Counted from the stretch's first letter, positions 22,540 to 47,923 are shown. The stretch: DNA of 64,000 bases from Candidatus Limnocylindrales bacterium (GCA_035559535.1 DATMBG010000029.1:1-64000); one strand, 5' to 3'. The notes: a model not told the origin generated them from the letters alone. Program-made: numbers and translations.

Positions 22540-24000
22540 TTATCCCCAATTTGACAGAGGATATCTTTTGATAACGTCTGCTTCTCTTCTTATACGGTCT
22601 GTCCAGAACACTTGACCCGGTCGTTGAAAGAGATCCCGCAGGTGATTTCGATCAAAATTATCCAACTGATCCTGGGTTTCAAGATAAATATCCATGGCAT
22701 ATCGGAGCAACTTGCCTCCATGTCGACCCAATACCACATAAGGAGCTACCTGCGTTTCTCGATTCCTTTGGGTAAGTATGGCCAATACAGCCCAGGGGTT
22801 TTTGTCATCTTCATCTTTGGATACCCTCTCCCGGGCAACCGTAATCAAGACCTCTAATGCCCGGGCTTCAAAGGCAGCCCAGTCTTCATTTACCCGTTTG
22901 GTAGCCGCTGTGCCGTATTTGCTTAGTGATCTAACAATTTGAAGAAGTAGGGCCTTAAGTTCTTTCAACAAATCATCGGCCTGGGCTATCTTTGTTTTAT
23001 CAAAAAATCCGTTCTGTTCTTCCTTCCGGATATCAATGGATAGTAAGGGATCTGTCCCGATCTCGACGTATCGCTTAAATAACCCCGGGAATTGGACATT
23101 TCCAAGAACATTGTTGCTGGTACCCAGATTAAATTGCCTCTTGGCCTCTCGATTTAAAAAATCAACGTCAGATTGAAGCTGATCTAGATCCTTTGCCAGA
23201 TCTTTAAGCTCTACTTCTACTTTACTCCACAAGATTCGTGGATCTGCAACAGGGAGTCTTTGTTCCAGCGATCCTTCTTGTAATCCGTAATACAGGTTTA
23301 AAACCCCTAATACATCGGTTTTATCTTCATTACCTACCCTACGCTGACTCATTCCGGCCAGCAAAAGATTCACCACGGAGAACAGACTTACCGCCTGGTT
23401 TGCTTCTTCAATACTGATGGGGGATTCAATACTGAATCTGGCATCATCTAACCGGTCCAGGAAGTCTTTGACAACATTCAAGGAGAAATCAATTCCGTCG
23501 GTCTTGATTCCTGAGATAACGGCTACGTTTCGAGCTGCTAGATATTGATTGCCCTGGATACGCACCGTATAAATCCCTGCCGGGAGATTCACAAGGATAT
23601 AATCCCCATTTGCTTCCGTTTTTGTTGATCCGATAATCTGCTCTTGGGCATCTACGACCTCTACCACAGCCTGTGCCACGGGCATACCCTTTTCATTGGT
23701 TACGTGACCTGCTATTGAACCGGTCTGTGCAACCGGAGCTGCTTCCAGTTTGAAGTTGATCCGAGGAGTATCCTGCCCCTCCTTTACCTCAACTTCCATC
23801 CCTCCAGGACTTTTAAATCCTGCGGCCTGAACGTTAACCGTATATTTTCCAGGAGCTAGGTTGGGAATAGCATACTTACCGTTGACATCTGTCAATACCT
23901 CGGCGGATGCAGCTCCTGCAACATCCTTTGCGCTTACCTTAGCCTTCTCAATCCCTTTACCGCTTGTATCTAGGACTTGACCTGAAATCGAACCTGGCAT
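22540..24000 (-). CDS. two carboxypeptidase-regulatory-like beta-sandwich domains plus unknown helical C-domain; last gene of CIS operon
   Basis: GSISGQV..TD.NGKY.I.NL.PG.Y.V repeated twice. Confidence 0.75.
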   Translation of the reverse strand: MPGSISGQVLDTSGKGIEKAKVSAKDVAGAASAEVLTDVNGKYAIPNLAPGKYTVNVQAAGFKSPGGMEVEVKEGQDTPRINFKLEAAPVAQTGSIAGHVTNEKGMPVAQAVVEVVDAQEQIIGSTKTEANGDYILVNLPAGIYTVRIQGNQYLAARNVAVISGIKTDGIDFSLNVVKDFLDRLDDARFSIESPISIEEANQAVSLFSVVNLLLAGMSQRRVGNEDKTDVLGVLNLYYGLQEGSLEQRLPVADPRILWSKVEVELKDLAKDLDQLQSDVDFLNREAKRQFNLGTSNNVLGNVQFPGLFKRYVEIGTDPLLSIDIRKEEQNGFFDKTKIAQADDLLKELKALLLQIVRSLSKYGTAATKRVNEDWAAFEARALEVLITVARERVSKDEDDKNPWAVLAILTQRNRETQVAPYVVLGRHGGKLLRYAMDIYLETQDQLDNFDRNHLRDLFQRPGQVFWTDRIRREADVIKRYPLSNWG

Positions 24001-24001
24001 T

Positions 24002-25336
24002 TTACATACCCTCCTTTTCGGGTAACTCCCCTAACGCCTTCCACGCCAGGAGTGTCTCCCAGGTAAAATTAAGTTTTTGAGTTTCAAGTTTTTGGATCAT
24101 CTCCTCCGTAACTCCCCCTTTCCACAACAACTTACAGGCAATTTTGAATCCAGGCTTTTCTCCCTTGTCTATTCGGATAAGAAATTGTAAACTCTCGTTT
24201 TCCGATTTTGTTAGAAGAAAACCCAAAGGTAAAGAAGCAACCCCGAGTTCCGTTAACAGGGAAAGTCTCCCCCCTATGCTCTCCCATCTAGAACTCGGGT
24301 AATACTGGATCTTTGAAAGACCAAACTGGGTAACCTCTGAATCGATAAAAGTGACTTCTCCCTGGGCGGTAGACTGAAGTTCTAACTTTACCTCCGACGG
24401 AGTTCTCGCTTCGGTTGGACGGACTTCCGGCAAAGCGTGATCTTCCAGGGACCTGTAGTTAGCGGAAATAAGAGTTTGACAGGAGAGGCTGGAGATGGGG
24501 AAATCTAACAGGACTTCTTTTTCAATTAAAGTAAAAAGCAACTCCGGGCTCTGGAAACGGTCTTCACCGTTCAATTTCTTTTTAAGCGGCTCTAAAAGGA
24601 TTGTACTTACTTCGGAATCCGCACCTAAGCGTTCAATACCCTGTCGAACCCGTAATCTCCACGGTATTCGCCCAGAGGGTGGCTTTTCGGAGAGGGAATT
24701 TTCTATCCCTTCCCGGACCATAACACCTTCTGTTGCGGATGCCGAAGAATCTTTTTCTTTTAAAGGTGTTTCCGGTTCTTCAAAACTCTTATCCTTCTCT
24801 GATTCCTTTGTAATCTCCCGGTCCCGGGATTCAGTTTCCCCATTCGGCACTTCTTTTGAGACTTCGGTCTGCTCCGTAGGAAGAAGACTGAGGATTCGAA
24901 AAGTTTCTTCTCCCTCCATTGGTTTGATCAGTCTGGCGATGGGAATTAAATTTTCTCTGGATTCCGGCAAGGTTGCACGTAACAGGACCGAGCAATTATC
25001 CCATATCAGGGTAAATTGTCCTTCAACCTGACCTCCTTCAACCTGATCATATTTGATACAGACATACTGAGAATCTTCTTGGGGCTTGAAAACCACTTCC
25101 ACATCCTTGGGTTCGTCACAAACGATGCGATTCCTCTGGAAATCAAAAGCCAGTCCCGGTTGAACGGTAATGGTATGGGCATCCCTGGGTAGGACCTTAA
25201 AACCGTAGTAAACTTTTCCAAGTCCCAAAATTTCCCGGATATCCTGGAGAGCCGAGTGGAAAGACCCCTGTAGATGGTCCATATGTTCCGTTGTAATCCG
25301 CAAACCGTCAAAAACCCGAATTTGTCTTGGTTTCAT
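24002..25336 (-). CDS. putative tail-fibre/baseplate attachment protein
   Basis: N-terminal RVFDGLRITTE..GFKV..ITVQPGLAFD..RIV resembles CIS fibre-anchor N-termini. Confidence 0.5.
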   Translation of the reverse strand: MKPRQIRVFDGLRITTEHMDHLQGSFHSALQDIREILGLGKVYYGFKVLPRDAHTITVQPGLAFDFQRNRIVCDEPKDVEVVFKPQEDSQYVCIKYDQVEGGQVEGQFTLIWDNCSVLLRATLPESRENLIPIARLIKPMEGEETFRILSLLPTEQTEVSKEVPNGETESRDREITKESEKDKSFEEPETPLKEKDSSASATEGVMVREGIENSLSEKPPSGRIPWRLRVRQGIERLGADSEVSTILLEPLKKKLNGEDRFQSPELLFTLIEKEVLLDFPISSLSCQTLISANYRSLEDHALPEVRPTEARTPSEVKLELQSTAQGEVTFIDSEVTQFGLSKIQYYPSSRWESIGGRLSLLTELGVASLPLGFLLTKSENESLQFLIRIDKGEKPGFKIACKLLWKGGVTEEMIQKLETQKLNFTWETLLAWKALGELPEKEGM

Positions 25337-25455
25337 AATAAACTTTCATAACCCTTTGGGTCACCATATCCTATGAAGATAGAAGATAAAGCGACCTTAG
25401 ACTTTGACCTCTCGTAAGAAACTCATTCATTTCCAATAAAATTCCCGGCTTTGCC

Positions 25456-26865
25456 CTAACGGTGATATTCTTGAATTATATTGGCAAGGCTTAAGGTTCC
25501 CCGGGCATGGGATTTAACCTTAAGGTCCACTTGTTGGAGGTTATAGGTTTCGATATCAAAAGAAATGGTTTGTGCTCCGGGTTTAGGATCAATCCGTTGC
25601 CACCTCTGGGTCCCTTCAATACCGATTTCGATCGCTGCTGTTTGGTTGTCGATTCCAGGGAGATAAACCAATCGGAGCAATGCCGTACAGGCTGGATCAG
25701 ACAGACCCCGTAGGGGTTTCCAGAGACGTCCGCCCCGATTAACAAGGATTTGCTGAAGATAACCCGTCTGGGTTTGAAGGGCCAGTCGAACCTTCCCCTG
25801 GATTCCTTTGATGACTATCCAATAGGGGGTTTGGGCTTTTAAGTCCACAGGGGCTTGAAAGCCGGTGAAAATCCATTCCGGGTCTCCATTCTTTCCGGTA
25901 GGGACCAGGGTCTGTTTCGACTTTGCTAAGGGGGCTTCTAGGGAAGGAAATCCATTTGTGTCGTTTTGAATAGCGACGTACAATTCTGCCCCGGCGTTCA
26001 TTTGAAAAAGCCCGGTCACTCCTACTCCCTGCATAGAGGTTTCCAACATAAATCGTTGGGCCACGGAATAGTCTCCACTTACCGTGGCAAACTCTTTCCC
26101 ATCATGATTCTCAACGTTTCCAAGTAGCCTTTCCGAACCGAATTCACCACCGATGTCCATCTCTATCTTTCTGATTCTGTGACCCATGGGATCGGATATG
26201 GGATCTAGAAGGATTTTCTCACTCATTCCATAACTCAAGGGCAGGTTTCGGTCAAATCGAATGGTGTCATCTAAGGGATTCTTCCAGGTTTGGGTCTGTA
26301 ACAGGGAATAATCCAGACCGGCCCTGTTAATATTGATTTTGACCTTCCCAGGGGTATCCGATTTGATAAGGAACCGAAGGATAACCTGACCGTTCTCAGG
26401 TTGTATTTTATCTAGATAGGCATTGACTTGTTTTGCAAAATCAGGCAGGGTGTATTGATCGTTGACCAGTCCACCTGCGAAGGTCCAGAATACTTCTCCC
26501 TGATCCAATCTCAGTGAAACATTTCTGGGACGTGTAGGCATGTCGATTTCCAACCGATAAGTCTCCTTTTGGCCTTCATCCTTTTTTACACCCACGGTTG
26601 TTTGTTCTGGTCTTACCGGAGAGGTATCTTCGGTGACTTGAAGGGTGGCACCGATTTTTTTAACATTGGCATTGACAGGCAAATCCGATAGCGGAACGAG
26701 AACTTCGGTTTCTTCTCCGGGTTTTAAGGGAACAAAATCCTTCTCTAAACCCAGGATGGCTTCAACAGAAAGCTTATCGGGGCGAAAGAGATACGCTTCC
26801 TGAAAGGCCAGGCCCCGTTCACCTTTAATCCCTACATTTATTAAATGGGGAGGTTTAAATTCCAT
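25456..26865 (-). CDS. beta-rich hypothetical, putative fibre/receptor-binding protein
   Basis: SVAQRF..LYVAI..D.NG.P..W..F..PVDL....YWIVI beta-sandwich pattern; in operon. Confidence 0.45.
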   Translation of the reverse strand: MEFKPPHLINVGIKGERGLAFQEAYLFRPDKLSVEAILGLEKDFVPLKPGEETEVLVPLSDLPVNANVKKIGATLQVTEDTSPVRPEQTTVGVKKDEGQKETYRLEIDMPTRPRNVSLRLDQGEVFWTFAGGLVNDQYTLPDFAKQVNAYLDKIQPENGQVILRFLIKSDTPGKVKININRAGLDYSLLQTQTWKNPLDDTIRFDRNLPLSYGMSEKILLDPISDPMGHRIRKIEMDIGGEFGSERLLGNVENHDGKEFATVSGDYSVAQRFMLETSMQGVGVTGLFQMNAGAELYVAIQNDTNGFPSLEAPLAKSKQTLVPTGKNGDPEWIFTGFQAPVDLKAQTPYWIVIKGIQGKVRLALQTQTGYLQQILVNRGGRLWKPLRGLSDPACTALLRLVYLPGIDNQTAAIEIGIEGTQRWQRIDPKPGAQTISFDIETYNLQQVDLKVKSHARGTLSLANIIQEYHR

Positions 26866-26871
26866 AACCTC

Positions 26872-27729
26872 TCATCTTAACCTTTGTGCGGCAGTTTTGG
26901 GAATCTTATATCCCTGATAGCTGACCAGTTCTCCCAAAATGGATTGGAGGACTTCCTCTGCCTTTACGACATCCTGATGTTCCACGGCCACAAGAATCAA
27001 ATAAGGGGGTTCCAGCGGGGTCCCGGGAGGTGGATACTGCCAGACAATACGGCGATTTTCCAGGAGGTCTTTGTCGGTGGTATGGGGCATATTTTCTATA
27101 CGTACCTCCTCCTCCAGTTCTGGATCATTTAAGATGGCAATGGAAACGATATGATCCATCACCTCCAATTTGTTACGATCCATGTTAAACGCTTCGGCGA
27201 AATCTTGTTTAGTCGTGTCGGTCCAGTCTTTGGCCAGCTCATTGAGGACTTCTCCGACTTTAACCTTACGTTCCAAATAATTCATCAGACCACCCGCCGC
27301 CATATTTTTGTTTATAATCGTATTAATGGCCTCCATCACAGTGGCCGGGTTTGCCATGTTAAGATGTTCAATGGCCCCTCGGGCCAATTGGGTTGTTGTC
27401 TTGGGTAAGAGAAGTGGCGGCAGAAACGGTAACAGAATATCCGGCCTGACAAAGGTTGCCGCGGGTAATTTTGTAGCAACCGCCGTTGCCAAAGGTTGAG
27501 TTGAAGAGAGAGCTTCTTTAGCAGGTTGGGTTAAGAGTTCTGGAATAAAAGCTGTAGTTACCGGACTCCCGGCAGTTACCCCGGTCAAAGGTTGGGTCGG
27601 TTGTGGAATTACCCGGGTCGTTTCAAACGATTTTGGAGAAGACAGGGTCATGGCTGTAGCAGGCTGGCTCCCTAACCTTCCTTCCCCTTTTGAATTCTTA
27701 AAACTATTAAGATTCGCACTAATGGCCAT
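26872..27729 (-). CDS. hypothetical, P/T-rich N-terminus and PASTA-like C-terminal motif
   Basis: IVWQYPPPGTPL..LILVAV; GGAG SD; in operon. Confidence 0.5.
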   Translation of the reverse strand: MAISANLNSFKNSKGEGRLGSQPATAMTLSSPKSFETTRVIPQPTQPLTGVTAGSPVTTAFIPELLTQPAKEALSSTQPLATAVATKLPAATFVRPDILLPFLPPLLLPKTTTQLARGAIEHLNMANPATVMEAINTIINKNMAAGGLMNYLERKVKVGEVLNELAKDWTDTTKQDFAEAFNMDRNKLEVMDHIVSIAILNDPELEEEVRIENMPHTTDKDLLENRRIVWQYPPPGTPLEPPYLILVAVEHQDVVKAEEVLQSILGELVSYQGYKIPKTAAQRLR

Positions 27730-27752
27730 TTTATAACTCCTTTCTACTTTTT

Positions 27753-28466
27753 TTATTTTGAAAGTACCTGTTTAGCTTCGACCAGAGAAAGCCCGATCAG
27801 TTGGGAAGTATTCATAGGAGTCATCGGAAAGGTAATATCTCCCAGGATCGCGCGTAATCTTTCTGAAGCTTCCCGGTAGGTTAATCCTAATAGATTGGGG
27901 GCAAAACGACGGGTTTCAACCGCTTCGGTCAAGATGATGATAACCCTTCGCTCTCCCGGTATCACCGGCATAACCTGAAGGACCTTGCGGTTATCCAACG
28001 CCGTGTCATGAGGGTTTTCTATCTCCGTGCCGAAGACGGTTAAGACTTTGTAGATCCCATACTGCTGAGAGATTAATGCCAATCTGGCCTCCTCAAAACT
28101 GCGACCAAAAAGGGTACTGGAAAGCAAAAACATATCATAAAGGATTTTAAGACTTTGGGATAACTTCTTGAAATCATCGGCTTTAATTCGATCTCCCGGG
28201 GATGGGAACGGGAGGTCTTGAAAAGGATTACTTCCGGGCGCCCCCGGTAGGGGTGCCAGAGGTTCCATTCCCTCACCCCCTCGCTCCTTCTCTCCTAAGC
28301 CGGGAGAGGGGGAAGGAGGGTAAGGGGATGTAGCCCCTACAGGGGTTTCAGTCGGGGATTTCAAGGGTGCTTCGCCTGGGCCGGGCTTCAAAAAAGTTAC
28401 GCCGGTACTTACCGATTGGACGGTTTTTAATTTTTCGATGCCAATCTTAAATTTTTCATCGGGCAT
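27753..28466 (-). CDS. hypothetical with PASTA-like motifs and an in-frame REP-derived segment
   Basis: GRSFEEARLAL, PNLLGLTYREASERL, QLIGLSLVEAKQVL. Confidence 0.55.
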   Translation of the reverse strand: MPDEKFKIGIEKLKTVQSVSTGVTFLKPGPGEAPLKSPTETPVGATSPYPPSPSPGLGEKERGGEGMEPLAPLPGAPGSNPFQDLPFPSPGDRIKADDFKKLSQSLKILYDMFLLSSTLFGRSFEEARLALISQQYGIYKVLTVFGTEIENPHDTALDNRKVLQVMPVIPGERRVIIILTEAVETRRFAPNLLGLTYREASERLRAILGDITFPMTPMNTSQLIGLSLVEAKQVLSK

Positions 28467-31761: not shown

Positions 31762-32246
31762 TACAGAGGTCCTTCAAATAAAAAGGGAATCACCAGACTC
31801 AAGGGATCTGGAAACCCCTTCATTTGGACGGTGATATAAATATCCACCTTATCCCGATTCTCACGCCCCTGGCTCGGTCTCACATCGATCCTTTGAATCG
31901 CTTCAAGCCTCGGCTCCTGCTTTAAGCATTCCAACACGTAAAGTTTAATCAAATTTCGGTTACCTTCTGTGTTTGGTTCCCCTATCAGCTCATGATGCCG
32001 TGAGCCGTAATTGGGATGACCTAACCCGGCCAGTTCACCCCGTTCTGTTTTGAGCCGAAGAATCAAGCTCTGGATCAGATTCGCCTTTCCGTTGACCATC
32101 CTCAGGTCCATTGTACGGGGAGCAACCTCCTCACGAAGTTTTGCCTGCAGGTCTACCCGTGAATAGGGACCGGCAAACACCCGACCTTCTTCATCGGCTA
32201 TAAAACCCAAATCGAAATCTTGACCCAAAAAAATTTCATCGGCCAT
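31761..32246 (-). CDS. gp25/GPW baseplate wedge protein
   Basis: NLIQSLILRLKTERGEL..HPNYGSR.HELIGEP, QEPR. Confidence 0.9.
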   Translation of the reverse strand: MADEIFLGQDFDLGFIADEEGRVFAGPYSRVDLQAKLREEVAPRTMDLRMVNGKANLIQSLILRLKTERGELAGLGHPNYGSRHHELIGEPNTEGNRNLIKLYVLECLKQEPRLEAIQRIDVRPSQGRENRDKVDIYITVQMKGFPDPLSLVIPFLFEGPL

Positions 32247-39296: not shown

Positions 39297-39306
39297 TTCT
39301 CGATCC

Positions 39307-42300: not shown

Positions 42301-42648
42301 GAGACCGGTCAGCAGTTGTCCAGAAAGATTGTCTGCGGAAAGGTTTCTGAGGCTTTCCAGCCTGGCATTAAGGGGTTGAATTAAGGAAGGTGGATCCGGA
42401 AAGGCGTTCACCGCCTGCCGGAATTGGGCTGATGCTCCTCCGGTCACTGCGTCGGTGTTGACCGAAACCCGGGCAGAAAAATTCTGATCCAGTTTTATTG
42501 CCAGAGACGCCGACAAATGGGATGGATTGATCTTCTCTAAAAGTTTCAACACCCCGGCGACTCCTGTTCCTGCGGCTTCATCTCCCAGCACGGGAGCCAG
42601 AATATTTGTTAATTGTTCTTGCGTGGGTAGCTGTTGTAAAAGTCCCAT
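39307..42648 (-). CDS. approximately 1113-aa amphipathic helical repeat protein (tape-measure-like)
   Basis: 23-residue periodic L..(L/I/F)(D/S)P..L..PL repeats; ATG 42648 avoids overlap with upstream gene. Confidence 0.65.
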   Translation of the reverse strand: MGLLQQLPTQEQLTNILAPVLGDEAAGTGVAGVLKLLEKINPSHLSASLAIKLDQNFSARVSVNTDAVTGGASAQFRQAVNAFPDPPSLIQPLNARLESLRNLSADNLSGQLLTGLQGLQNIASLIPPSARELITEAADRMTQIKGEFISGEFGQIRQWSENVQRLYEEIQPLLRGDPGTLENRLLAYLREKVTDLVRLILPGENLALVISGNLDAAISTEKLSTINTLKADLINAMDRVRTEFEQGNFTNTTHFASVRASFQQLVDALASITMTLRRFLDQPIATADGLSHALQQQFENFLQIEIIDLGNIRDKFTQAIGHIEEAIRGLDLDLIRQKIEGIFDQINGVIGKFDLSQWTGKLTDLQKQLQSVLDALDGALFEAIASIRAVFTQIKDTLRSMASTLGSYDEQGNFRFHIQQQIEDFLNGVKQTLQETIRPLVDQFKNTVGQALQQVRDGLNAVKGEIEKVKTQLQGMLQGINDQLQSLDVAGTVEAVRQKLEGMLSSLGSIDFDPIVDPVVAQINEMRDTLKKIDVSSLNEFTIGALKVSVEVMVKIDFSVQITDALMAEFDKLLEIPKKALGEIETSVESVLQRFGQLAPEVLLKPLDNLFAPIISHLDTLKLEVLLKPLDEWYTRAQQELDRVSPAMLLKPLIDLHAQLAGAWDKISPVELIRPLREAIDDIKAQVRKIDVTGLSAKLSEVINQVKGALDKISPDRLLNPLVGAFDKIMAALDNFDPAILLKPLTDIFNVLAAPLANLTSDHVGLISEIFAVLRSAVDAFDPKRVFQVVREKATTVNGLLQQLNVGGLLASLKGPYDSMHASFEAHGGPVHVSLSASVEDLNPLRNAAITQAVNDLQHAQVQINTLAHLEPSMDLINRYNTEIREKLESLIPIWAKENVSPDSIRRVFRLANPLNLTTEIHQLYDAIKQQLRNFDPRILQEQIKVSFERLKTALFSLDPQALTHQVQEVLNGLFQRLDGLDLQLILNELSGAADEVKTIIVGLDPGPIIVQLQNLVDEVKGLVAALQPSQLLSELNEPFKLSKEIVAEFDPSTFKEPLQATFESIQKVLEAVDIGVILQPLTDRLNQLRGELATGLKRTETAFNGMIAAIPV

Positions 42649-42664
42649 AAAGCTTTTCCCGATT

Positions 42665-43246
42665 CTATGGGCCAAACAAATTACGTAGATCGGTGACAAC
42701 GGTATCCAGGCCCGTAGTAGCCGCTTTTATCCCATCCAATGCCTGACGTAAAGGCTGGGTGGGATCTCCAAAGTTAGGGATGGAGGACAAAGTATCTATG
42801 GCATTCATGGCCGTATCTACTAAATTCATGGCATCCTCCAAAATTCCGGTGTCCAGCAAATTTGTTGCAGGAGGCTCCGGCGGCTTAACATATTTTCGTA
42901 ATTTGATCAGATACCGGAAGCTATCCGGGCTCCCTGAAACCTCCACAACCTCCAGATCTTCGATGATCACCTCGGTGATATCGGTTGCGGTGTTGATATC
43001 GGCCACGAAGGTTGTTGGTTCACCTTTATTGAAAATCTCTCGAATTCCATTCAAAAAAGTATCCCGAGCCTCATCCCCGTGTCTGGTACCGACGATCACA
43101 ATGGCGTTGGGTACGGTTCCCATATCCTGGAAATAATTCCCCGCCAGACCCGGAACCCGATGCTCCACCAGCGCCCGGCTTTCCGAGGATTCGATGTACT
43201 CAATACCCTCCAGGGCAAAAGATCCCAGCATAGGTTTGATTTTCAT
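42665..43246 (-). CDS. Mu gpN-like 'DNA circularization N-terminal' / tube-initiator protein
   Basis: LVEHRVPGLAGNYFQDMG, terminal Y.I.L.KY. Confidence 0.65.
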   Translation of the reverse strand: MKIKPMLGSFALEGIEYIESSESRALVEHRVPGLAGNYFQDMGTVPNAIVIVGTRHGDEARDTFLNGIREIFNKGEPTTFVADINTATDITEVIIEDLEVVEVSGSPDSFRYLIKLRKYVKPPEPPATNLLDTGILEDAMNLVDTAMNAIDTLSSIPNFGDPTQPLRQALDGIKAATTGLDTVVTDLRNLFGP

Positions 43247-44235
43247 GTGATATCAATCCCGTGTTGTAAAGCCTGTTCCCGCAAGATATGGACGATTTTT
43301 TCGGACAGATCCCTAAGGGACCCCATCTCCTTACCCTCCGAAGCCTCTACATCGATATTGAAAATGTTTTGAATCTCCACTTTCTCCGACGAATTGATAG
43401 GTGTTATCTTCTGAATCCGTTGGGAAGAATCAGACCCCCCCTGACCGGAGACAAAGGCGTGAAGCCTTTGAGCAATCTGTTGTCCGGTCATTTCAGGCCA
43501 GGACCGAGATGCCAGAGTACGGCCCGACAAGGTTGAAAAAGAGGTTTGATTCCTTCTTCCTCCTTCCTCTGAAGGTTTAAGTATTTCGGGTCGAGATGCT
43601 GATTCTAAGGCGTTACGCCATAAAGTTGGAGATAAAATTCCATTCCCCCCTTGATCCTTTTCAACCCTGGTCGATTGATTTAAATCCCCTTCCGGAATCC
43701 GAACCCCCTGGTTTAGCTGCCGGTATTCCCCAAGCTTCTTAACCAACAGAGAGGTAACTGGTTGTCCCTGTCGATTACGCCTTCTAAAGACGACATCCCT
43801 TTGCTCTTTCCATGTTTGCTTGGGATTTAACCGGGATGCGGGGAAAACCGATTTCCGACTTTGGAATGGAGCTTTCCATAAATCCAACGGATCAGAGGAC
43901 TTTTTCGCTAAAACCGGGCTTAAAGAGAGCTTTTCTCTTTCCAGATCAACAGAAGAATTATCCTGAGAAGCAAATCTCCATCTATCCAGAGTAGCTGTCT
44001 CCATGACCTTTTCAGATTGTTCCGGGTATTGAAGTAACTGTCGTAAACGCCCGCTCATTAAGGTCAAAACGCCACCTTCCAGGACATCTCTGGGAACCTG
44101 GGTCTGTAAAACACAGATAGCATCCATAGCTTTTAAAAAGGTACCCAGCGGTTTAGTTTTTAGACAGAGCTCGGAACGTAACCTTGAAGGACCCGTAGCT
44201 TTTACTAAAAATCTGGTAATACCGGTTCTCATCAA
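43243..44235 (-). CDS. hypothetical at the tape-measure position; disordered with TMP-like C-terminus
   Basis: C-terminal VEIQNIFNIDV..LSEKIVHILREQA; overlapping start/stop coupling with both neighbours. Confidence 0.5.
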   Translation of the reverse strand: MMRTGITRFLVKATGPSRLRSELCLKTKPLGTFLKAMDAICVLQTQVPRDVLEGGVLTLMSGRLRQLLQYPEQSEKVMETATLDRWRFASQDNSSVDLEREKLSLSPVLAKKSSDPLDLWKAPFQSRKSVFPASRLNPKQTWKEQRDVVFRRRNRQGQPVTSLLVKKLGEYRQLNQGVRIPEGDLNQSTRVEKDQGGNGILSPTLWRNALESASRPEILKPSEEGGRRNQTSFSTLSGRTLASRSWPEMTGQQIAQRLHAFVSGQGGSDSSQRIQKITPINSSEKVEIQNIFNIDVEASEGKEMGSLRDLSEKIVHILREQALQHGIDIT

Positions 44236-44723
44236 AATGGAGAAGTCTTTTTAGCCTGATTGAGCAATTCCAGGTAACTGATAATTTGCCCAACCGTCAT
44301 TTCCTTCACCTGTTGGGGGGTCCAATTAAATTCCTTTGCCAGCACAAAGAAGGCTTGTACGATGGGAGACTCAGTTATTTCTCGCATTTCATCTTCAGTT
44401 GTACTCAGGCCACTGATATGGTTGATGCGATCAACGAGAAAGCGGACCAGTCCACTATGCAGGTCTGCAATTTCATTTTGTTTAAGTTTAGGCTCTACGA
44501 CGGCCCTCTGAATCATAAGCACGGAGGTCAAGACTTCATCCTCTTTGGCGGCTTTGGCGATGAGTTGAACATCCTTTACGGTAAGGGGTCGAAGCCTGAT
44601 CTTTTTTCTGGGTTCACCCTCGGGGGGCCTACCGTCTGGCGTAGGATACAGGATTTCGGGTGGAATCTCGATTTCAAAGGTCATTTCTTTGCCGGCTAAA
44701 AGTTCTTCGGGGGTAATAAACAT
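44232..44723 (-). CDS. tail assembly chaperone (XkdN/gpG-like with GT-like C-terminus)
   Basis: IRLRPLTVKD, AVVEPKL, RINHISGL, LAKEFNWTPQQVKEMT; follows tube gene. Confidence 0.7.
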   Translation of the reverse strand: MFITPEELLAGKEMTFEIEIPPEILYPTPDGRPPEGEPRKKIRLRPLTVKDVQLIAKAAKEDEVLTSVLMIQRAVVEPKLKQNEIADLHSGLVRFLVDRINHISGLSTTEDEMREITESPIVQAFFVLAKEFNWTPQQVKEMTVGQIISYLELLNQAKKTSPF

Positions 44724-44770: not shown

Positions 44771-45274
44771 TTATGTGGGAACTTCAGTATCCTGGATACT
44801 GATGCGTTTGGCTTTGAAAGATAGTTTTTCAAGGACAAAGTCATCTTCCGGTAAGCTAAATTGCCAGGTATCGAACATGACGCCGTAAACCGTTAGAATA
44901 CTATTTCCTGCATCTCCTGGGGGCATTAAATTGTCGAGGATAATTTTCATATTGAAACTGGGGATCCTAAAACCGGTAGTTTCTTCATTTTCAGCATATG
45001 GGCCCAACATTAATTTTAGAAGCGCGCCGTTAATAAAAGCCCGCTCGACCGTTCCCTCGATGATAATATTGCCTGCCCTTAACTCCTTGGGAGCCCGAGA
45101 ACCCAGTTCGTGAAAAAATTTAACTTCCGTTGAAATTTGGATGGATACGTTGGTCACCCGACCTACAAGCCCGTCTTCACCCAGGTAACCGGTAAAGACA
45201 CCCGTATCCAGGCCATCTGGATCACTCAACGTCAAAACCCCATCGGTACCATAAAAAGCATGGGTATTAAACAT
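44771..45274 (-). CDS. tail tube protein
   Basis: 167 aa directly after sheath; ELG...KEL..G.I.IEGTVER, EDDFVLEKLSFKA. Confidence 0.75.
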   Translation of the reverse strand: MFNTHAFYGTDGVLTLSDPDGLDTGVFTGYLGEDGLVGRVTNVSIQISTEVKFFHELGSRAPKELRAGNIIIEGTVERAFINGALLKLMLGPYAENEETTGFRIPSFNMKIILDNLMPPGDAGNSILTVYGVMFDTWQFSLPEDDFVLEKLSFKAKRISIQDTEVPT

Positions 45275-45284
45275 GGTAACCTCC

Positions 45285-46973
45285 TCAGCTTAAGTTCATG
45301 ATAACGCGGATCACGTCAATACTGAAGGTAGGATTGAGATCCATAACCACCAGCACTTCTCCTCGAATCTCCATGGCGCGATCTGCCGAGACGGTAAGTT
45401 TGTATCCGGTCAGAAATTCCCGGAGGATCAAATCCGATAGAAAGCTATCAAGGGTGGTGCGCAGGTTTTCCCTCACCCGCCTGTTGTTTAACTTGCCAAT
45501 ATATTGGTTTGCACCCAGGCGGGTACCTTCTTTAACGTAGTCCACGATCCGACGCAGGGTAATTTGTTTAAATGCTTCGTCATCGGTGGTAATCCCTTTA
45601 ACGACCCGGATACCCCGCTTTTTCTGTAGGGTAAGCACACGGTTTTGTACCAGCGCCTTCAGCTCACCGTAATTGTACTCCATGGCCAGATCCTCAATAC
45701 CGGCCAGGGTCTTATTGGTCAGGCTGATGTGGGGAGATAAAGAACTCAGCTTACCGGCTACAGCCGCTGCGGCAAAATAGGGGGGCAAATCTACTACCTG
45801 GCCGGTTTGAGGATCTTTTTCTCTAAGACCCGGTGCTACCAAAACAATCCGCTTATCGGCAATTTCGTTGGCATTCTCCAGGATCTTTTCCATTTCACTG
45901 CTATCGGTTCCAACCACGGCCATACGTTCACGACCCAGATTTTCCGTCTTTTCCACATGACCCAAAATGGCTGCTTTGATATCTGAGAATTTGAGTCCTG
46001 CGACCACCACGATTTGTACATTTTGCTCGACCAGGTTATCCAGAGCAGCCTGGAAATGACTTAAGGATACCGTTCCGTTCTCCCCCCCTGAAAAGGCCTC
46101 AAATCTTGGGGTTGTCTTGGGCAGGCCATCTCCTTTTGTTTCGACGACCTCTACCAATCTGGAAGGATTCTCTTCATCCTTAAGCCGTTGAGCCAGGTAA
46201 GAAATGCTGGGAACGATATAAACTTCCTGAGTATTGCCATATCGTAAGGTAACTTTTCGCAGGCTTTCTTTAGGTACCCAGTAGCTGGCCAGTACCTCTG
46301 CCGTTGAGGAGGGCGGGATCGCAAACGTCAGCGTACGATTGGTTGGATTCACCTGAACTACACTGGTAGAAGCCTGGGTTTGCTTAAGCTGATATTTTTT
46401 CGCTAATCCCTGCTCCAGGACTACTACACTGCCTATACTCGATTCTGCACCGTTACCACCTTCCGCGGCCTGCGGTTGAAGAATTTTCTGGGCTGAAAGC
46501 ACAAAAGATCCGTTACTGCGGGCAACCACTTCCTTACTGACGAGTTCCTGGACTTCAGCCTCCTCAATCCGAATCTGTAGTCGATTCCCCCAGGTACCCG
46601 GGGTCCTGGCTTTTAAGGTCAGAACCGGAGCATTACTTTCATTGGATATCTGATAGGTTGCTCCCCTGGCTGTTTTTTCGTCCAACACCCGTTGCGCATA
46701 AACGGTACGGGCTCCATTATCAAAGAGAAATTTGAGGGCTCGAACTAGGGTGAGATTACTTTCCCCTCCTTTCAGGTCCCATTCCTCTATTTCCCCAAAC
46801 CTGGCCCGCCCTTCCTCAAAACTACTCAGGTTTTCGATCTTACTACTTCCCATCTCAGCCGTTCCGATAATACCCACGTTTCCCGTAGCAATAGCTCCAA
46901 TGGTCAGAAGCCCTTCAGCCCGGACCTCGATGTAAGTACCGGGAAGGATAGTTTCCGTAATAACTTCGGCCAT
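45285..46973 (-). CDS. contractile tail sheath protein
   Basis: ILPGTYIE, GIIGTA, GARTVYA.RV, ARTPGTWGN.L, FSGG.NG, RRIVDYV, IGKLNN, P..SIDVI. Confidence 0.92.
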   Translation of the reverse strand: MAEVITETILPGTYIEVRAEGLLTIGAIATGNVGIIGTAEMGSSKIENLSSFEEGRARFGEIEEWDLKGGESNLTLVRALKFLFDNGARTVYAQRVLDEKTARGATYQISNESNAPVLTLKARTPGTWGNRLQIRIEEAEVQELVSKEVVARSNGSFVLSAQKILQPQAAEGGNGAESSIGSVVVLEQGLAKKYQLKQTQASTSVVQVNPTNRTLTFAIPPSSTAEVLASYWVPKESLRKVTLRYGNTQEVYIVPSISYLAQRLKDEENPSRLVEVVETKGDGLPKTTPRFEAFSGGENGTVSLSHFQAALDNLVEQNVQIVVVAGLKFSDIKAAILGHVEKTENLGRERMAVVGTDSSEMEKILENANEIADKRIVLVAPGLREKDPQTGQVVDLPPYFAAAAVAGKLSSLSPHISLTNKTLAGIEDLAMEYNYGELKALVQNRVLTLQKKRGIRVVKGITTDDEAFKQITLRRIVDYVKEGTRLGANQYIGKLNNRRVRENLRTTLDSFLSDLILREFLTGYKLTVSADRAMEIRGEVLVVMDLNPTFSIDVIRVIMNLS

Positions 46974-46985
46974 AAGGATACCTCT

Positions 46986-47570
46986 CTAGGTTTTGTTGGT
47001 TGACGGTGGAACAGAGTAGGTCAAACGTCCTCGTTTGATAACTAATGACTCCGGGGGATGTTGCCCCATATCCACATCAATTCTCTTAATAAGACCGCTG
47101 CTCACTTCCCGACCTTCCTCAGACTCAAATACAAATCTGTAGCCTAAGGGTTGTTTCCAAACAGGGAAGGGTGAGCCAACCGATGGATGATGTAACACGT
47201 TTTCCACAGGCTCCAGACGTGCAGGCTGGAGCTTCACGAATCCTTTTTGTTTTAACAAGGCAGGATTGAATTTCAATTTATTTTGAAGTTTTTCGGAAAT
47301 TTCCTGGACCGAATCCCCGTTGTTGGCCCATATCTCCAGCATCAAGAAGCCCCTGTAGGTCTCTTCCAACACTTCGCCTTTCTCCCCATCTCCGGTACGA
47401 ATCAAACGCCCGATTCCTGTGCCCTTATAATCTTCAATGGTTAGGGACATGACAACGGCTGGAATCTCGCTGCCGGTGGAAGGTTTCTTCACTCCCAAGC
47501 TTCCGGCAGATAACACAGGCTCCGGAGAAGCAGATAAAACTTCCACAAGTCTATCAATTATCCGGTACAT
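46986..47570 (-). CDS. putative tail terminator/cap protein
   Basis: Position directly upstream of sheath; P....IPAVV.SL and LEIWA pattern; assignment by synteny. Confidence 0.45.
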   Translation of the reverse strand: MYRIIDRLVEVLSASPEPVLSAGSLGVKKPSTGSEIPAVVMSLTIEDYKGTGIGRLIRTGDGEKGEVLEETYRGFLMLEIWANNGDSVQEISEKLQNKLKFNPALLKQKGFVKLQPARLEPVENVLHHPSVGSPFPVWKQPLGYRFVFESEEGREVSSGLIKRIDVDMGQHPPESLVIKRGRLTYSVPPSTNKT

Positions 47571-47596
47571 CCTCCCGTTAACTCAAATAGACAGGT

Positions 47597-47923
47597 TTAG
47601 GGTTCTAATTCCTTTTTCCCCTGGGTTTTGTCGGTCAGTTCACGTAAAAATACCTTTATTTCTTTCAACCGATTTTTATTCAGTCCGTAGATTTTTGGAG
47701 AAGGGAGGATTTCTCGTTTTATCAACCATCCCTTTGAGACCAAAAAATCAAGGACTTCTTGAACGGCTTTTCCATCTATTTTAGCCTGACTTTTTGGAGT
47801 CCACCACTTGAGAATCCCTTCCAGGGTATCTTTTGCGTCAGGGTGTTCGGTTAAGTAATGGAGAATTTCTTCAATCAATTTCTGACGAGCCCTGAAAGAT
47901 TCTTTTTCCTTTGGAGAATTCAT
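47597..47923 (-). CDS. small winged-helix protein, first gene of CIS operon
   Basis: EILHYL..HPDAKDTLEGI.KWW, VQEVLDFLV.KGWL, IYGLN. Confidence 0.65.
   Translation of the reverse strand: MNSPKEKESFRARQKLIEEILHYLTEHPDAKDTLEGILKWWTPKSQAKIDGKAVQEVLDFLVSKGWLIKREILPSPKIYGLNKNRLKEIKVFLRELTDKTQGKKELEP

What the first reader, a model, noticed from the sequence alone, without database searches (positions are those of the whole stretch)
22540..47923. Atypical capsid-less contractile injection system, distinct from canonical AFP/PVC
Seen: 19 co-oriented, often translationally coupled genes in tail order: wHTH, cap-like, single sheath, single tube, chaperone, gpN-like, helical giant, toxin, hub, spike, gp25, J, I, then accessory genes. 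I see no capsid, portal, terminase, integrase, holin/endolysin or T6SS membrane complex. Established: AFP/PVC/MAC eCIS usually have several sheath/tube paralogues, an Afp15 AAA+ ATPase, a LysM/gp53 protein and PAAR, and R-type pyocins carry a lysis cassette; I recognise none of these here. Inference: a domesticated, Mu/PBSX-flavoured, toxin-delivering CIS subtype in an autotroph, released without a dedicated lysis cassette or acting intracellularly.
Basis: partly seen in the sequence, partly recalled or inferred. Interest (0 to 1): 0.9.

Follow-up and report, generated by a model that had tools for sequence, protein, structure and literature searches.

The report
Sigma-54-controlled headless contractile injection system
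This is an intact, head-less phage-tail-like injection machine from a widespread but uncatalogued family, switched on by the cell's own sigma-54 regulator and carrying a swappable slot for large toxin-like proteins.

Summary
Window 47923-22540 (minus strand) carries 20 co-oriented genes: sheath, tube, chaperone-like, tube-fold protein, tape measure, a 1519-aa cargo-like protein, hub, spike, gp25, J and six conserved distal genes. No capsid, portal or terminase family was found in the 95.8%-complete genome, and there is only one sheath. All 20 genes are intact in a sister species (dN/dS 0.02-0.29), so this is not a decaying prophage.

The adjacent AAA+ gene is a sigma-54 enhancer-binding protein. 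A -24/-12 promoter sits just before the first gene, and the pairing recurs in 12 of 17 distinct related loci. The sheath is 62-78% identical across Acidobacteriota, Aminicenantes and Deltaproteobacteria MAGs. It is at most 35% identical to any of 50,697 phage records, and only weakly similar to solved CIS sheaths.

The slot after the tape measure is variable: PAD, LodA and other large proteins. Here it holds a protein whose centre matches a DUF4157/Ntox toxin.

It fails the defining tests for Afp/PVC-type eCIS (no Cis15 ATPase) and for R-tailocins (no lysis cassette). Cargo delivery and the release route are inferred. The verdict is a new variant of a known kind.

The parts
48190..49584 (-). 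Sigma-54 enhancer-binding protein (464 aa): atypical N-terminal domain, AAA+ Sigma54_activat domain with a GAFTDA loop, C-terminal Fis-type HTH. It is the dedicated activator of the cluster.
   Evidence: PF00158 at 1.5e-68 and AAA_lid_14. GAFTDA is read in the translation. Homologues at 36-54% identity lie directly upstream in 12 of 17 distinct related loci. dN/dS is 0.155 against the sister species.
49853..49868 (-). Second -24/-12-type motif, about 270 nt upstream of the activator gene. It may allow autoregulation.
   Evidence: One of 4 matches to TGGYAYN5TTGCW in the window, against 0.18 expected. Function not tested.
47936..47951 (-). Sigma-54 promoter (-24 TGG / -12 TTGC) 13 nt upstream of the g01 start codon.
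   Evidence: A motif scoring 9 or more of 11 lies at the equivalent place in 11 of 14 activator-bearing loci. rpoN is present in the genome.
47597..47923 (-). g01, 108 aa, first gene of the operon.
   Evidence: No family hit. Conserved at 28-60% identity in several loci. dN/dS 0.19.
46986..47570 (-). g02, 194 aa, conserved gene preceding the sheath. Possibly a tail terminator/cap, by position only. It lacks an insert of about 90 aa that most relatives have.
   Evidence: Alignment A6. No Pfam or PDB sequence match. dN/dS 0.17.
45285..46973 (-). Tail sheath, 562 aa, single copy in the genome.
   Evidence: PF04984/PF17482, phrog_279 at 3.6e-52. 1240 relatives, and the 120 best listed (excluding the window's own protein and P0002/P0003 at 96% and 92%) are 64-78% identical. 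One copy in the genome.
44771..45274 (-). Tail tube, 167 aa, single copy.
   Evidence: PF18906 at 4.6e-5, below the cut-off. 62-75% identical in 13 of the 14 related loci aligned (L051 38%, G008 locus 44%). The family profile finds no solved tube by sequence.
44232..44723 (-). g05, 163 aa, tail-assembly-chaperone-like by position. Highly conserved.
   Evidence: No family or PDB match. ESM lead to a 'tail assembly chaperone GT' cluster at 0.81 only. dN/dS 0.067.
43243..44235 (-). g06, 330 aa, low-complexity protein abutting g05. Weakly conserved except for its C-terminal end.
   Evidence: 25-37% identity with E-values from 1e-16 to 1e-59 across loci. dN/dS 0.27.
42665..43246 (-). g07, 193 aa: tube-fold N-domain, PPEPP linker and two long helices. 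Read as a tube initiator / tape-measure head module.
   Evidence: AF2 mean pLDDT 64, core 70-85. The top Foldseek hits are baseplate chains of phages 7-7-1, Milano, Bas63, Pam3, Mu and E217 and of diffocin. 509 representative clusters match. Of the 150 best, 37 are N-termini of proteins of 800-1973 aa, and 14 of those carry tape-measure similarity.
39307..42699 (-). Tape measure protein. The ORF is 1130 aa; the likely true start is Met18, at about 42648.
   Evidence: PHROG tape-measure families, best 3.1e-13. Length is conserved at 1104-1130 aa across loci in two sequence classes.
34767..39326 (-). g09, cargo-like protein. The ORF is 1519 aa; the likely start is Met11, at about 39296. It has an N-module (residues 11-202), a central scaffold (338-1110) and a C-terminal E..D..D-N-K motif region (about 1340-1390). 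GC content is elevated at 0.52-0.57.
   Evidence: No Pfam hit. The centre is 26% identical (E 2e-44) to P0123, which carries eCIS_core/DUF4157 plus Ntox4 and Ntox1. The N-module is 34% identical to the post-tape-measure protein of L051. ESM lead to an Mrr_cat cluster at 0.90. The AF2 model failed at pLDDT 46. dN/dS 0.12.
33565..34719 (-). Baseplate hub (gp27 / Mu gpP / E217 gp41-like), 384 aa.
   Evidence: PF22759 at 8e-6, NF033848 VgrG_rel at 1.8e-11.
32753..33565 (-). Central spike, 270 aa, with an OB domain and a C-terminal H-x-H apex motif.
   Evidence: PF04717 at 1.8e-3. VgrG C-terminal models from 3.6e-7 to 1e-5. The THVHPG motif is read in the translation. dN/dS 0.024.
32471..32734 (-). 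g12, 87 aa, unknown. It sits between spike and gp25 and shows no PAAR signature.
   Evidence: No family hit. dN/dS 0.29.
31761..32246 (-). gp25-like sheath initiator / wedge protein, 161 aa.
   Evidence: PF10934 at 8e-8, PF04965 at 1.8e-7, phrog_975 at 1e-18.
29911..31761 (-). Baseplate J (gp6-like) wedge protein, 616 aa.
   Evidence: PF04865 at 2e-19, phrog_6 at 4e-46. Weak TIGR02243 hit. 66-67% identical in G041.
28494..29924 (-). g15, 476 aa, second wedge protein (gp7 / P2 gpI position) by synteny only.
   Evidence: No family hit. 59% identical in G041 in the same position.
22540..28466 (-). g16-g20 (237, 285, 469, 444 and 486 aa): conserved distal genes, read as peripheral baseplate and fibre candidates. 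g18 has a choice-of-anchor R domain. The g19 N-terminus weakly resembles CIS13. g20 has two CarboxypepD_reg Ig-like domains.
   Evidence: All five are present in the same order in G041 at 29-60% identity. dN/dS 0.085-0.18.
17481..22001 (-). PAS/GAF hybrid histidine kinase next to the cluster. A possible sensor input; the association is not shown.
   Evidence: It is conserved at this place in the sister species. A related hybrid kinase lies upstream of the cluster in L008.

Best explanation
The locus encodes a domesticated, head-less contractile injection particle. It belongs to a distinct, widely but patchily distributed family that current eCIS and tailocin catalogues would not capture.

Shown:
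- The cluster has 20 intact genes under purifying selection, in tail order.
- No head or packaging genes were found in the genome.
- A dedicated sigma-54 enhancer-binding protein and a -24/-12 promoter lie at the operon start, and rpoN is present.
- The slot after the tape measure is variable.

Inferred mechanism:
1. A signal, possibly through the neighbouring PAS/GAF hybrid kinase, activates the enhancer-binding protein. This opens the sigma-54 promoter and transcribes g01-g20.
2. Hub, spike, the g07 tube-fold module and the tape measure of about 1110 aa nucleate a baseplate, together with gp25, J, g15 and the distal proteins g16-g20.
3. Tube and sheath polymerise to a length set by the tape measure. 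At the lambda figure of about 1.5 angstrom per residue (recalled), that is roughly 170 nm.
4. The g09 protein is carried in or on the particle and expelled on contraction. I read its C-terminus as a PD-(D/E)xK-type nuclease.
5. Cargo loading works without a Cis15-type ATPase. It probably relies on N-terminal modules, or on direct fusion to the g07/tape-measure module, as seen in related loci.
6. The fibre-like distal proteins suggest action on an outside target after the producer cell breaks open by means not encoded in the cluster.
For: Structural core.

Head-less: 0 matches to 5 capsid, portal and terminase families with working controls in a 95.76%-complete genome, and one sheath. In G041 the flanking genes are cellular: GH94, Ysc84 and PNPOx.

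Functional, not decaying: all 20 genes plus the activator are intact in G001, with pairwise dN/dS of 0.024-0.29. The whole order g10-g20 recurs in a Pyrinomonadaceae genome at 29-67% identity.

Sigma-54 control:
- PF00158 at 1.5e-68.
- 4 strict motif matches in the window against 0.18 expected, two of them before the operon and before the activator.
- The activator is present in 12 of 17 distinct loci with at least 3 kb of upstream sequence.
- A motif lies at a conserved offset of 1216-1247 nt before the sheath start in 7 loci, and at the equivalent spot in 11 of 14 activator loci.
- rpoN is found in 9 of 9 genomes of the order.

Distinct family:
- The sheath is 62-78% identical in metagenome and MAG loci from other phyla.
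- It is at most 35% identical, over at most 60% of its length, in 50,697 phage records.
- The best IMG/VR match is 29% and plasmid matches are 30% or less.
- PDB profile hits are only the haloarchaeal CIS at 5.8e-11, CIS-Sc at 4e-5 and pyocin at 0.05.
- Tube, g05 and g07 profiles find no solved protein by sequence.

Cargo slot: unrelated large proteins follow the tape measure. They include PAD-domain proteins in G041, L016 and L017, LodA in L012, and other large proteins with no Pfam hit. N-modules are shared and C-termini vary. The g09 centre matches a DUF4157 + Ntox4/Ntox1 protein.
Against: - No particle, expression or delivery data exist. No RNA run holds the locus.
- The nuclease reading of g09 rests on a motif that I read in three homologues and one ESM lead at 0.90. 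Pfam finds nothing and the AF2 model was unusable.
- No immunity-like gene follows g09; the hub starts 48 nt after it. This argues against a classical antibacterial toxin-immunity pair.
- Post-tape-measure proteins of one class share about 800 conserved N-terminal residues, so they could be structural.
- No lysis gene, secretion signal or membrane protein explains how the particle is released.
- Motifs scoring 9 or more of 11 also occur in 2 of 5 activator-less loci, at other positions, so the score alone is not specific.
- 3 of 14 activator loci show no good motif.
- The membership lists of eCIStem and dbeCIS are in supplements I could not open, so some relatives may already be catalogued.
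Confidence: 0.6

Rival explanations
1. It is an R-type tailocin, a bacteriocin. The particle kills related bacteria simply by puncturing and depolarising them. The large proteins after the tape measure are structural or tail-associated enzymes, not injected cargo.
For: The gene set is phage-like: one sheath, one tube, a chaperone-like gene, a tape measure, separate hub and spike, and no Cis15 ATPase. Published CIS pipelines file exactly this composition under 'phage/R-type bacteriocin' (passages of PMC12210884). Class-B post-tape-measure proteins share a long conserved N-terminal part.
Against: - No holin, endolysin or any membrane protein is present.
- Control is by a sigma-54 activator, not a repressor-type switch.
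- The slot holds enzyme domains with no obvious structural role: PAD and LodA.
- g09 shares its centre with a DUF4157/Ntox toxin.
- Sheath identity of 62-78% across phyla, with no phage relative above 35%, is unlike the known tailocins, which are close to extant phages. That last comparison is from my own knowledge.
Confidence: 0.2
2. It is a cytoplasmic or membrane-attached CIS, like Streptomyces CIS-Sc, Anabaena tCIS or the haloarchaeal T6SS-like system. It fires inside or from within the producer, for example in stress-induced cell death or contact-dependent attack, and is never released as a free particle.
For: No lysis cassette is present. The closest solved sheaths by sequence are the haloarchaeal CIS and CIS-Sc (identified through). 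Tight host regulation by a stress-type sigma factor is compatible with this mode.
Against: - No transmembrane protein in the cluster could anchor it.
- The similarity to those sheaths is weak and partial (E 5.8e-11 and 4e-5).
- CIS-Sc lacks a conventional tail fibre and a typical tape measure (passage of PMC10066040).
- This cluster has a tape measure of about 1110 aa and Ig-like or CIS13-like distal proteins.
Confidence: 0.15
3. It is the tail module of a prophage. Either it is a decaying remnant, or its head genes lie elsewhere or in unassembled sequence.
For: All recognisable genes have phage-tail homologues. The assembly is 58 contigs and 95.76% complete, so absence is not proven.
Against: - Five head and packaging families are absent, with controls ringing.
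- No integrase, tRNA or att repeat flanks the cluster.
- Every gene is under purifying selection in two species at the same chromosomal place.
- The same head-less arrangement, with cellular flanks, occurs in other phyla.
- No close relative exists in 2.9 million viral contigs or 50,697 phage records.
Confidence: 0.04

Closest known systems
Afp/PVC/MAC/AlgoCIS-type extracellular contractile injection systems (eCIS; Chen 2019 dbeCIS, Geller 2021 eCIStem)
   Same: - Both are head-less clusters of sheath, tube, baseplate, tape measure and fibres in a cellular genome.
- Large variable toxin-like genes are associated with the cluster.
- g09 shares its centre with a protein carrying the eCIS_core (DUF4157) domain.
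- Weak hits link J to TIGR02243 and the g19 N-terminus to CIS13.
- The activator-less relatives carry BTAD or GerE regulators. The eCIS literature lists these as shell domains (passage of PMC8213781).
   Different: - There is no Cis15/Afp15 AAA+ ATPase, no gp19-type tube family, no Pvc16_N, no PAAR and no LysM.
- It has a single tube and a single sheath.
- Hub and spike are separate genes, not one VgrG-like Afp8.
- The cargo slot lies mid-operon, between tape measure and hub, not at the 3' end.
- Control is by sigma-54 and an enhancer-binding protein.
- Pipelines that require Cis15 or eCIS-specific cores would exclude it.
R-type tailocins (pyocin R2, diffocin, carotovoricin)
   Same: Both are head-less contractile tails with one sheath, one tube, a chaperone, a tape measure, separate hub and spike, and no ATPase. 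The g07 fold matches diffocin and pyocin baseplate chains among others.
   Different: - There is no lysis cassette.
- There is no SOS or repressor-type control.
- There is no close phage relative.
- Enzyme and toxin-domain proteins sit in a variable slot.
- The family is spread across phyla with 62-78% sheath identity.
Streptomyces CIS-Sc (PDB 8bky/8bl4) and haloarchaeal T6SS-like CIS (PDB 9ezm)
   Same: These are the nearest solved sheaths by sequence. In the haloarchaeal cluster, toxin genes also lie in the middle of the structural genes, and some carry DUF4157 (passages of PMC11566945).
   Different: Similarity is partial and weak. Both of those systems lack a typical tape measure, CIS-Sc also lacks a conventional tail fibre, and a Cis15 ATPase is drawn in the haloarchaeal cluster (passages). 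The haloarchaeal one has a six-helix membrane anchor, whereas none of the 20 proteins here has a membrane helix.
Type VI secretion clusters controlled by the sigma-54 activator VasH (Vibrio cholerae)
   Same: A contractile weapon whose cluster encodes its own sigma-54 enhancer-binding protein. The VasH name is recalled. RpoN control of T6SS is stated in the abstract of PMC3439928, seen in the listing.
   Different: The cluster has no membrane complex and no ClpV. It does have a tape measure and fibre-like genes, which canonical T6SS lack (passage of PMC12210884).
Contractile phage tails with E217 gp41-type hubs, Mu gpN/gp43-type tube initiators and SPO1-like or haloarchaeal myovirus sheaths
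   Same: The gene order is that of Mu, P2 and PBSX tails. The hub matches PF22759 E217_GP41. The g07 fold matches baseplate chains of Mu, E217, Pam3, Milano and 7-7-1. The best phage hits for sheath and J are SPO1-like, phage G, PhiCh1 and HRTV.
   Different: Identity is 35% or less over partial lengths. There are no head genes. Regulation is cellular.

Membership tests
Afp/PVC-type eCIS | Head-less cluster with sheath, tube, gp25/J baseplate and spike | tested here: met
   No head families in the genome.
Afp/PVC-type eCIS | Cis15/Afp15 AAA+ ATPase in the cluster (used as a filter in PMC12210884) | tested here: not met
   The only AAA+ protein is a sigma-54 activator with PF00158 and an HTH. 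None of the 20 proteins has an AAA hit.
Afp/PVC-type eCIS | gp19-type tube (PF06841) in two or more paralogues, and a Pvc16_N/Afp16 cap | tested here: not met
   There is one tube, with a weak PF18906 hit only. PF06841 and PF14065 have no match in the genome, but their controls were weak or silent.
Afp/PVC-type eCIS | Fused VgrG-like Afp8, plus PAAR and LysM (Afp7) proteins | tested here: not met
   Hub (384 aa) and spike (270 aa) are separate genes. There are no PAAR or LysM hits.
Afp/PVC-type eCIS | Placement of Afp8/Afp11 inside the eCIS tree (Geller 2021) | not testable with these tools
   Reference sets are in supplements or databases not available here. Only a weak TIGR02243 hit for J is seen.
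R-type tailocin | Head-less phage tail module with tape measure and chaperone, without ATPase | tested here: met
R-type tailocin | Dedicated lysis cassette (holin, endolysin, spanin) for release | tested here: not met
   No lysis-family hit above noise. No hydrophobic 19-mer in any of the 20 proteins.
R-type tailocin | Close kinship to an identifiable phage lineage | tested here: not met
   Best phage identities are 24-35% over 60% or less of the sheath or J. The best IMG/VR match is 29%.
R-type tailocin | Killing by membrane puncture without cargo | not testable with these tools
   Needs purified particles.
Prophage | Capsid, portal and terminase genes; integrase and att sites | tested here: not met
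   (one control silent).
Sigma-54-dependent operon | Enhancer-binding protein with PF00158 and a GAFTGA-type loop | tested here: met
   PF00158 at 1.5e-68. GAFTDA is read in the translation.
Sigma-54-dependent operon | -24 GG / -12 GC promoter at the operon start, and rpoN in the genome | tested here: met
   Window 47936-47951. Positional conservation across loci. rpoN at G000:C22, E 4.7e-65. Transcription itself is not tested.
Type VI secretion system | TssJLM-type membrane complex and ClpV recycling ATPase in the cluster | tested here: not met
   No membrane helix and no AAA protein among the 20 genes. The rest of the genome was not searched for T6SS.
PD-(D/E)xK nuclease toxin (g09 C-terminus) | Restriction-endonuclease-like fold with E, D and (D/E)xK catalytic residues | tested here: inconclusive
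   The motif is conserved in 3 homologues (alignment A5). ESM lead to an Mrr_cat cluster at 0.90, a family carried by 40% of its members. No Pfam hit. AF2 pLDDT 46.

The most novel reading that the evidence does not exclude
This family is a separate domestication of a contractile phage tail into a cargo-delivering injection system, parallel to the Afp-type eCIS and the T6SS. It is wired to sigma-54 through its own enhancer-binding protein. It loads large effectors (nuclease-like, arginine deiminase, lysine oxidase) without any loading ATPase. Loading would use N-terminal modules, or fusion to the tube-initiator/tape-measure module. This makes it a new effector-loading principle and a CIS class that present catalogues filter out as 'phage'.
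Probability: 0.35. Interest if true: 0.85.

Novelty: new variant of a known kind. Interest (0 to 1): 0.66.

Why it matters
Contractile injection systems are studied as mediators of microbial warfare and as programmable protein-delivery tools. Almost all knowledge comes from one narrow eCIS clade, and genome surveys explicitly discard ATPase-less clusters as phage or tailocin.

This locus defines a large, tightly conserved, cross-phylum family that falls through that filter. Its switch is clear and testable: a sigma-54 promoter plus a dedicated activator. Its cargo slot is modular.

If cargo delivery is confirmed, three things follow:
- Effector loading would not need a Cis15-type ATPase.
- There would be a new chassis with a particle about 170 nm long.
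- Injection systems could be found in soil and hot-spring lineages such as Acidobacteriota, Aminicenantes and this autotroph, where none are characterised.

Tried and rejected
- AF2 of the g09 C-terminus from a 3-sequence alignment gave pLDDT 46 and was unusable.
- Sequence and profile searches of the PDB for g07, g05, tube and g02 gave nothing meaningful.
- NCBIfam and PHROGs add no name to g01, g02, g05-g07, g12 or g15-g17.
- The IMG/VR hit L057 (29% sheath identity) was inspected for head genes. Ten ORFs scanned with Pfam gave no capsid or portal hit, and the locus did not clarify ancestry.
- Expression: no RNA holder was listed for the sheath-tube stretch.
- Literature: five searches (and for PDB codes) found no paper describing a sigma-54-controlled, ATPase-less CIS or tailocin of this kind.
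  - The Geobacter GSU0972-0992 cluster is a canonical eCIS with an AAA ATPase and two gp19 tubes (table passage).
  - The Haliangiales CIS preprint models its system on tCIS 7B5H (passages).
  - Supplements (the eCIStem and dbeCIS locus lists) were closed, so prior cataloguing cannot be excluded.
- A sheath phylogeny against Afp, PVC and pyocin references was not built. Those sequences were not obtainable from the held collections, and the alignable part is about 230 residues at 25-30% identity.
- A programmed-frameshift reading of g05/g06 was rejected. The frame relation differs between loci and g06 has its own start codons.
- The ORF at 22137-22403 has no counterpart in the sister species and is probably not a gene.

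Full report
**Anatomy**

The minus strand from 47923 to 22540 holds 20 consecutive ORFs of 87 aa or more. Junctions are short or overlapping (translations). Pfam, PHROGs and NCBIfam identify these roles:

| Gene | Window coordinates | Role | Best evidence |
|---|---|---|---|
| g03 | 45285-46973 | sheath | PF04984/PF17482; phrog_279 at 3.6e-52 |
| g04 | 44771-45274 | tube | PF18906 at 4.6e-5, below cut-off |
| g08 | 39307-42699 | tape measure | several PHROG TMP families |
| g10 | 33565-34719 | hub | E217_GP41, VgrG_rel |
| g11 | 32753-33565 | spike | OB domain; VgrG C-terminal models; H-x-H apex motif read in the sequence |
| g13 | 31761-32246 | gp25-like sheath initiator | PF10934, PF04965 |
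| g14 | 29911-31761 | baseplate J | PF04865 at 2e-19 |

g20 starts with two CarboxypepD_reg Ig-like domains. g18 has a choice-of-anchor R domain. The g19 N-terminus weakly resembles the CIS13 fibre family (2.8e-4, far below cut-off).

g01, g02, g05, g06, g07, g09, g12, g15, g16 and g17 have no family hit. None of the 20 proteins has a hydrophobic 19-mer with Kyte-Doolittle mean of 1.6 or more. So the cluster encodes no holin-like or membrane-anchor protein.

Alignments with relatives suggest that the tape measure really starts at Met18 and g09 at Met11.

**Boundaries and head genes**

Upstream lies a sigma-54 activator (48190-49584). Beyond it are plus-strand metabolic genes. Downstream lie a PAS/GAF hybrid histidine kinase, transaldolase, PRK, a LysR-type regulator and form-I RuBisCO.

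The whole assembly is 5.6 Mb in 58 contigs and 95.76% complete. It has no match to the HK97 capsid, Phage_portal, SPP1_portal, TerL_ATPase or Terminase_6N families, and each of these searches rang in control genomes. Portal_Mu also found nothing, but its control was silent.

There is one sheath in the genome. The window has no tRNA, and no direct repeat brackets the cluster.

**Is it alive?**

The sister species G001 carries the same cluster at the same place. I aligned each gene by blastn and computed Nei-Gojobori dN/dS.
- All 20 genes and the activator are full-length without stops.
- dS ranges from 0.13 to 0.31.
- dN/dS ranges from 0.024 (spike) to 0.29 (g12).
- The unnamed genes and g09 are included; g09 scores 0.12.

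The small ORF at 22137-22403 has no counterpart and is probably not a gene. A decaying prophage remnant is therefore excluded.

**The family**

The sheath has 1240 relatives among the candidates scored. Apart from the window's own protein and two near-identical relatives (96% and 92%), the 120 best listed are 64-78% identical to it. Source names include Pyrinomonadaceae, Blastocatellia and Aminicenantes. Genome-contig and metagenome scans returned 5 and 46 loci, including a Deltaproteobacteria MAG.

Gene-by-gene BLAST shows a constant order in every locus long enough to see it: g01, g02, sheath, tube, g05, g06, g07, tape measure. In these loci sheath, tube, g05 and g07 are mostly 62-84% identical to the window's; the lowest values are tube 39% in L051, g05 49% in L028 and 56% in L033.

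In the Pyrinomonadaceae genome G041 the second half also recurs in the same order at 29-67% identity: hub, spike, gp25, J and g15-g20. Its upstream flank holds GH94, Ysc84 and PNPOx genes, not head genes.

A more distant version occurs in G008, a genome of the window's own order. Its sheath is 41% identical and only 361 aa long, without the middle insertion, and it sits in the same architecture.

The family is patchy. In a sample of 301 genomes of G041's phylum, only G041 itself matched at E of 1e-50 or better. In the window's order, 3 of 9 genomes have a relative.

**Relation to phages and known systems**

- In 50,697 GenBank phage records, no sheath or J match exceeds 35% identity or covers more than 60% of the query. 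The best are SPO1-like phages, Bacillus phage G, Lysinibacillus and Lactobacillus myoviruses, haloarchaeal viruses and mycobacteriophages.
- In IMG/VR the best sheath match is 29%.
- On plasmids, matches are 30% or less and mostly from Streptomyces.
- Against all PDB sequences, the single sheath finds only Streptomyces CIS-Sc (7e-11, C-terminal half) and the haloarchaeal CIS sheath (3.7e-7).
- The 33-sequence family profile finds the haloarchaeal sheath (5.8e-11), CIS-Sc (4e-5) and pyocin R2 (0.05). It finds no AFP, PVC, AlgoCIS, tCIS, T4 or T6SS sheath at E of 1 or better. The entries were identified through.
- Profiles of tube, g05 and g07 find no solved protein.
- The genome has no match to the gp19-type tube family, the eCIS_core domain or Pvc16_N. 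The controls for these were weak or silent.

**Regulation**

The 464-aa upstream protein has a Sigma54_activat domain (1.5e-68), an AAA lid, a GAFTDA loop and a C-terminal Fis-like HTH. So it is a transcription factor, not an Afp15-type loader.

A -24/-12 element (TGG-N9-TTGC) lies at 47936-47951, 13 nt before the g01 ATG. The strict pattern TGGYAYN5TTGCW occurs 4 times in the window against 0.18 expected. A second copy lies about 270 nt before the activator gene.

Twenty fetched loci have at least 3 kb of sequence upstream of the sheath. Merging near-duplicates (L006/L013/L014 and L023/L024) leaves 17 distinct loci.
- In 12 of these, a homologous activator (36-54% identity) lies directly upstream.
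- The other 5 lack it. L008 has a BTAD/SARP regulator and a hybrid kinase, L028 has a LuxR-type response regulator, L022 has an integrase fragment, and L017 and L026 are undetermined.

Of the 14 activator-bearing loci examined (including the window and L007), 11 have a motif scoring 9 or more of 11 just before g01.
- In seven of these the motif sits 1216-1247 nt before the sheath start.
- The window, its sister L005 and the G008 locus have shorter offsets; in the window and L005 this fits the shorter g02. L039 sits at 1108 nt.
- Three loci have no good motif.
- Motifs of equal score occur in 2 of 5 activator-less loci, but elsewhere. So the conserved position, not the score, carries the argument.

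rpoN is present in the genome. BTAD and GerE regulators are the ones reported as eCIS 'shell' domains by Geller et al. Their text does not contain the word sigma (passages of PMC8213781).

**The tube-fold module g07**

AF2 with 12 sequences gave a moderate model: mean pLDDT 64, with the beta-sandwich core at 70-85. It is followed by a PPEPP linker and two long helices.

Foldseek's best hits (E from 2e-4 to 8e-3) are chains in baseplate reconstructions. They come from phages 7-7-1, Milano, Bas63, Pam3, Mu, Pa193, phiCD508 and E217, and from diffocin and pyocin R2. T4, AFP baseplate, Hcp and siphophage tube proteins come next. I read this as a tube-initiator-type fold. TM-scores are low (0.2-0.4) because the helices are free in the model.

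An exhaustive HMMER search found 509 representative clusters. The 150 best break down as follows:
- 63 are stand-alone proteins of 150-260 aa.
- 37 are proteins of 800-1973 aa that carry the domain at their N-terminus.
- 14 of those 37 show similarity to the window's tape measure after the domain.

In related loci the domain is fused to the tape measure (L017) or to extensions of about 700-900 aa. The extensions in L008 and L011 include OmpA-type domains, and L008 also has a PG_binding_1 domain; these are peptidoglycan binders. This fills the role that a LysM protein has in Afp-type systems.

**The cargo slot**

The genes between the chaperone region and the hub vary.

| Locus | Proteins in the slot |
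|---|---|
| Window | g09 (1519 aa) |
| G041, L016 | 1625 aa / 1362+ aa proteins with a protein-arginine deiminase domain |
| L017 | a 920-aa PAD protein |
| L012 | a 365-aa protein plus a LodA-type lysine oxidase |
| L025, L039, L051, G008 | other large proteins with no Pfam hit |
| L011 | a Rieske plus molybdopterin oxidoreductase pair, inserted before g07 |

Proteins that follow the second class of tape measure share an N-terminal part of about 260-850 residues and differ at the C-terminus.

g09 has three parts.
- Residues 11-202 are 34% identical to the N-terminus of L051's post-tape-measure protein.
- Residues 338-1110 are 26% identical (E 2e-44) to the middle of P0123. That 1588-aa protein has an N-terminal eCIS_core/DUF4157 domain and C-terminal Ntox4 and Ntox1 domains.
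- The C-terminus has a conserved E...D...D-N-K pattern, which I read as a PD-(D/E)xK nuclease signature.

For the nuclease reading there is only an ESM-atlas lead to an Mrr_cat cluster (score 0.90; the family is carried by 40% of its members). Pfam is silent and the AF2 model failed.

Only four relatives of g09 were found in two searches: P0121, P0122, P0274 and P0123. The gene's GC content (0.52-0.57) is above that of the rest of the cluster, 0.46-0.50. No immunity-like gene follows it.

**Interpretation**

The data show a functional, host-regulated, head-less contractile particle of a distinct family. Its gene content is phage- or tailocin-like: a single sheath and tube, a tape measure, separate hub and spike, and no ATPase. 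Its biology looks CIS-like: a modular slot with enzyme and toxin domains, a link to a DUF4157 toxin scaffold, cellular regulators, and cross-phylum spread with no phage counterpart.

Published surveys remove clusters that have fibre and tape-measure genes but lack Cis15 and Cis6 (PMC12210884, passages). They also require eCIS-specific cores (PMC8213781, passages). That would explain why the family is not described in the papers I could search.

Whether cargo is really injected, how the particle leaves the cell, and whether it acts outside or inside the producer all remain inferences. The fibre-like distal proteins and the long tape measure favour an extracellular particle. The lack of any lysis or membrane gene keeps the intracellular reading open.

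I called search of earlier findings once. None of the eight notes returned concerns this locus or this kind of system, and none influenced the reading.

Noticed in passing
window 14032-15228 (+): The regulator divergent from the RuBisCO genes is a 398-aa fusion. It combines a full LysR protein (HTH_1 + LysR_substrate) with a C-terminal LuxR/GerE HTH, so one CbbR-like protein has two DNA-binding domains.
   Followed up: no
window 19771-21904 (-), inside the hybrid kinase gene: Three copies of a 193-nt direct repeat, spaced about 920-1020 nt apart at 70-72% identity. They reflect a triplicated coiled-coil/GAF/PAS module in the 1506-aa sensor kinase.
   Followed up: no
L011 9559-13928: In one related metagenome locus, a Rieske protein and a molybdopterin oxidoreductase with a Rieske_3 domain sit inside the injection-system operon, between g06 and the g07 fusion. 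The pair resembles arsenite oxidase.
   Followed up: no
L012 18823-21674; L063 601-5478; L017 10777-13539: The cargo slot of relatives holds a LodA-type L-lysine epsilon-oxidase and protein-arginine deiminase (PAD) domain proteins of 920-1625 aa. None of the CIS papers I read mentions these enzyme types as effectors.
   Followed up: partly
window 47921-47951 (-); L006 8756-8787: In the window and in L006 the first ATG of g01 lies only about 13-15 nt after the -12 GC. The first gene may therefore be translated from a leaderless or near-leaderless sigma-54 transcript. L011 has a longer spacing.
   Followed up: partly
window 1965-1980 (+) and 5085-5100 (+): Two further strict sigma-54 promoter-like motifs lie elsewhere in the window, ahead of plus-strand genes.
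   Followed up: no
L065 9627-10712 (G008): The distant relative in the same order has a 361-aa sheath. It lacks the roughly 200-residue middle insertion of the 562-aa family sheath but keeps the activator, promoter motif and gene order.
   Followed up: partly
window 34001-40000: The g09 region has GC of 0.52-0.57 against 0.46-0.50 in the rest of the cluster. This is consistent with later acquisition of the cargo gene.
   Followed up: no
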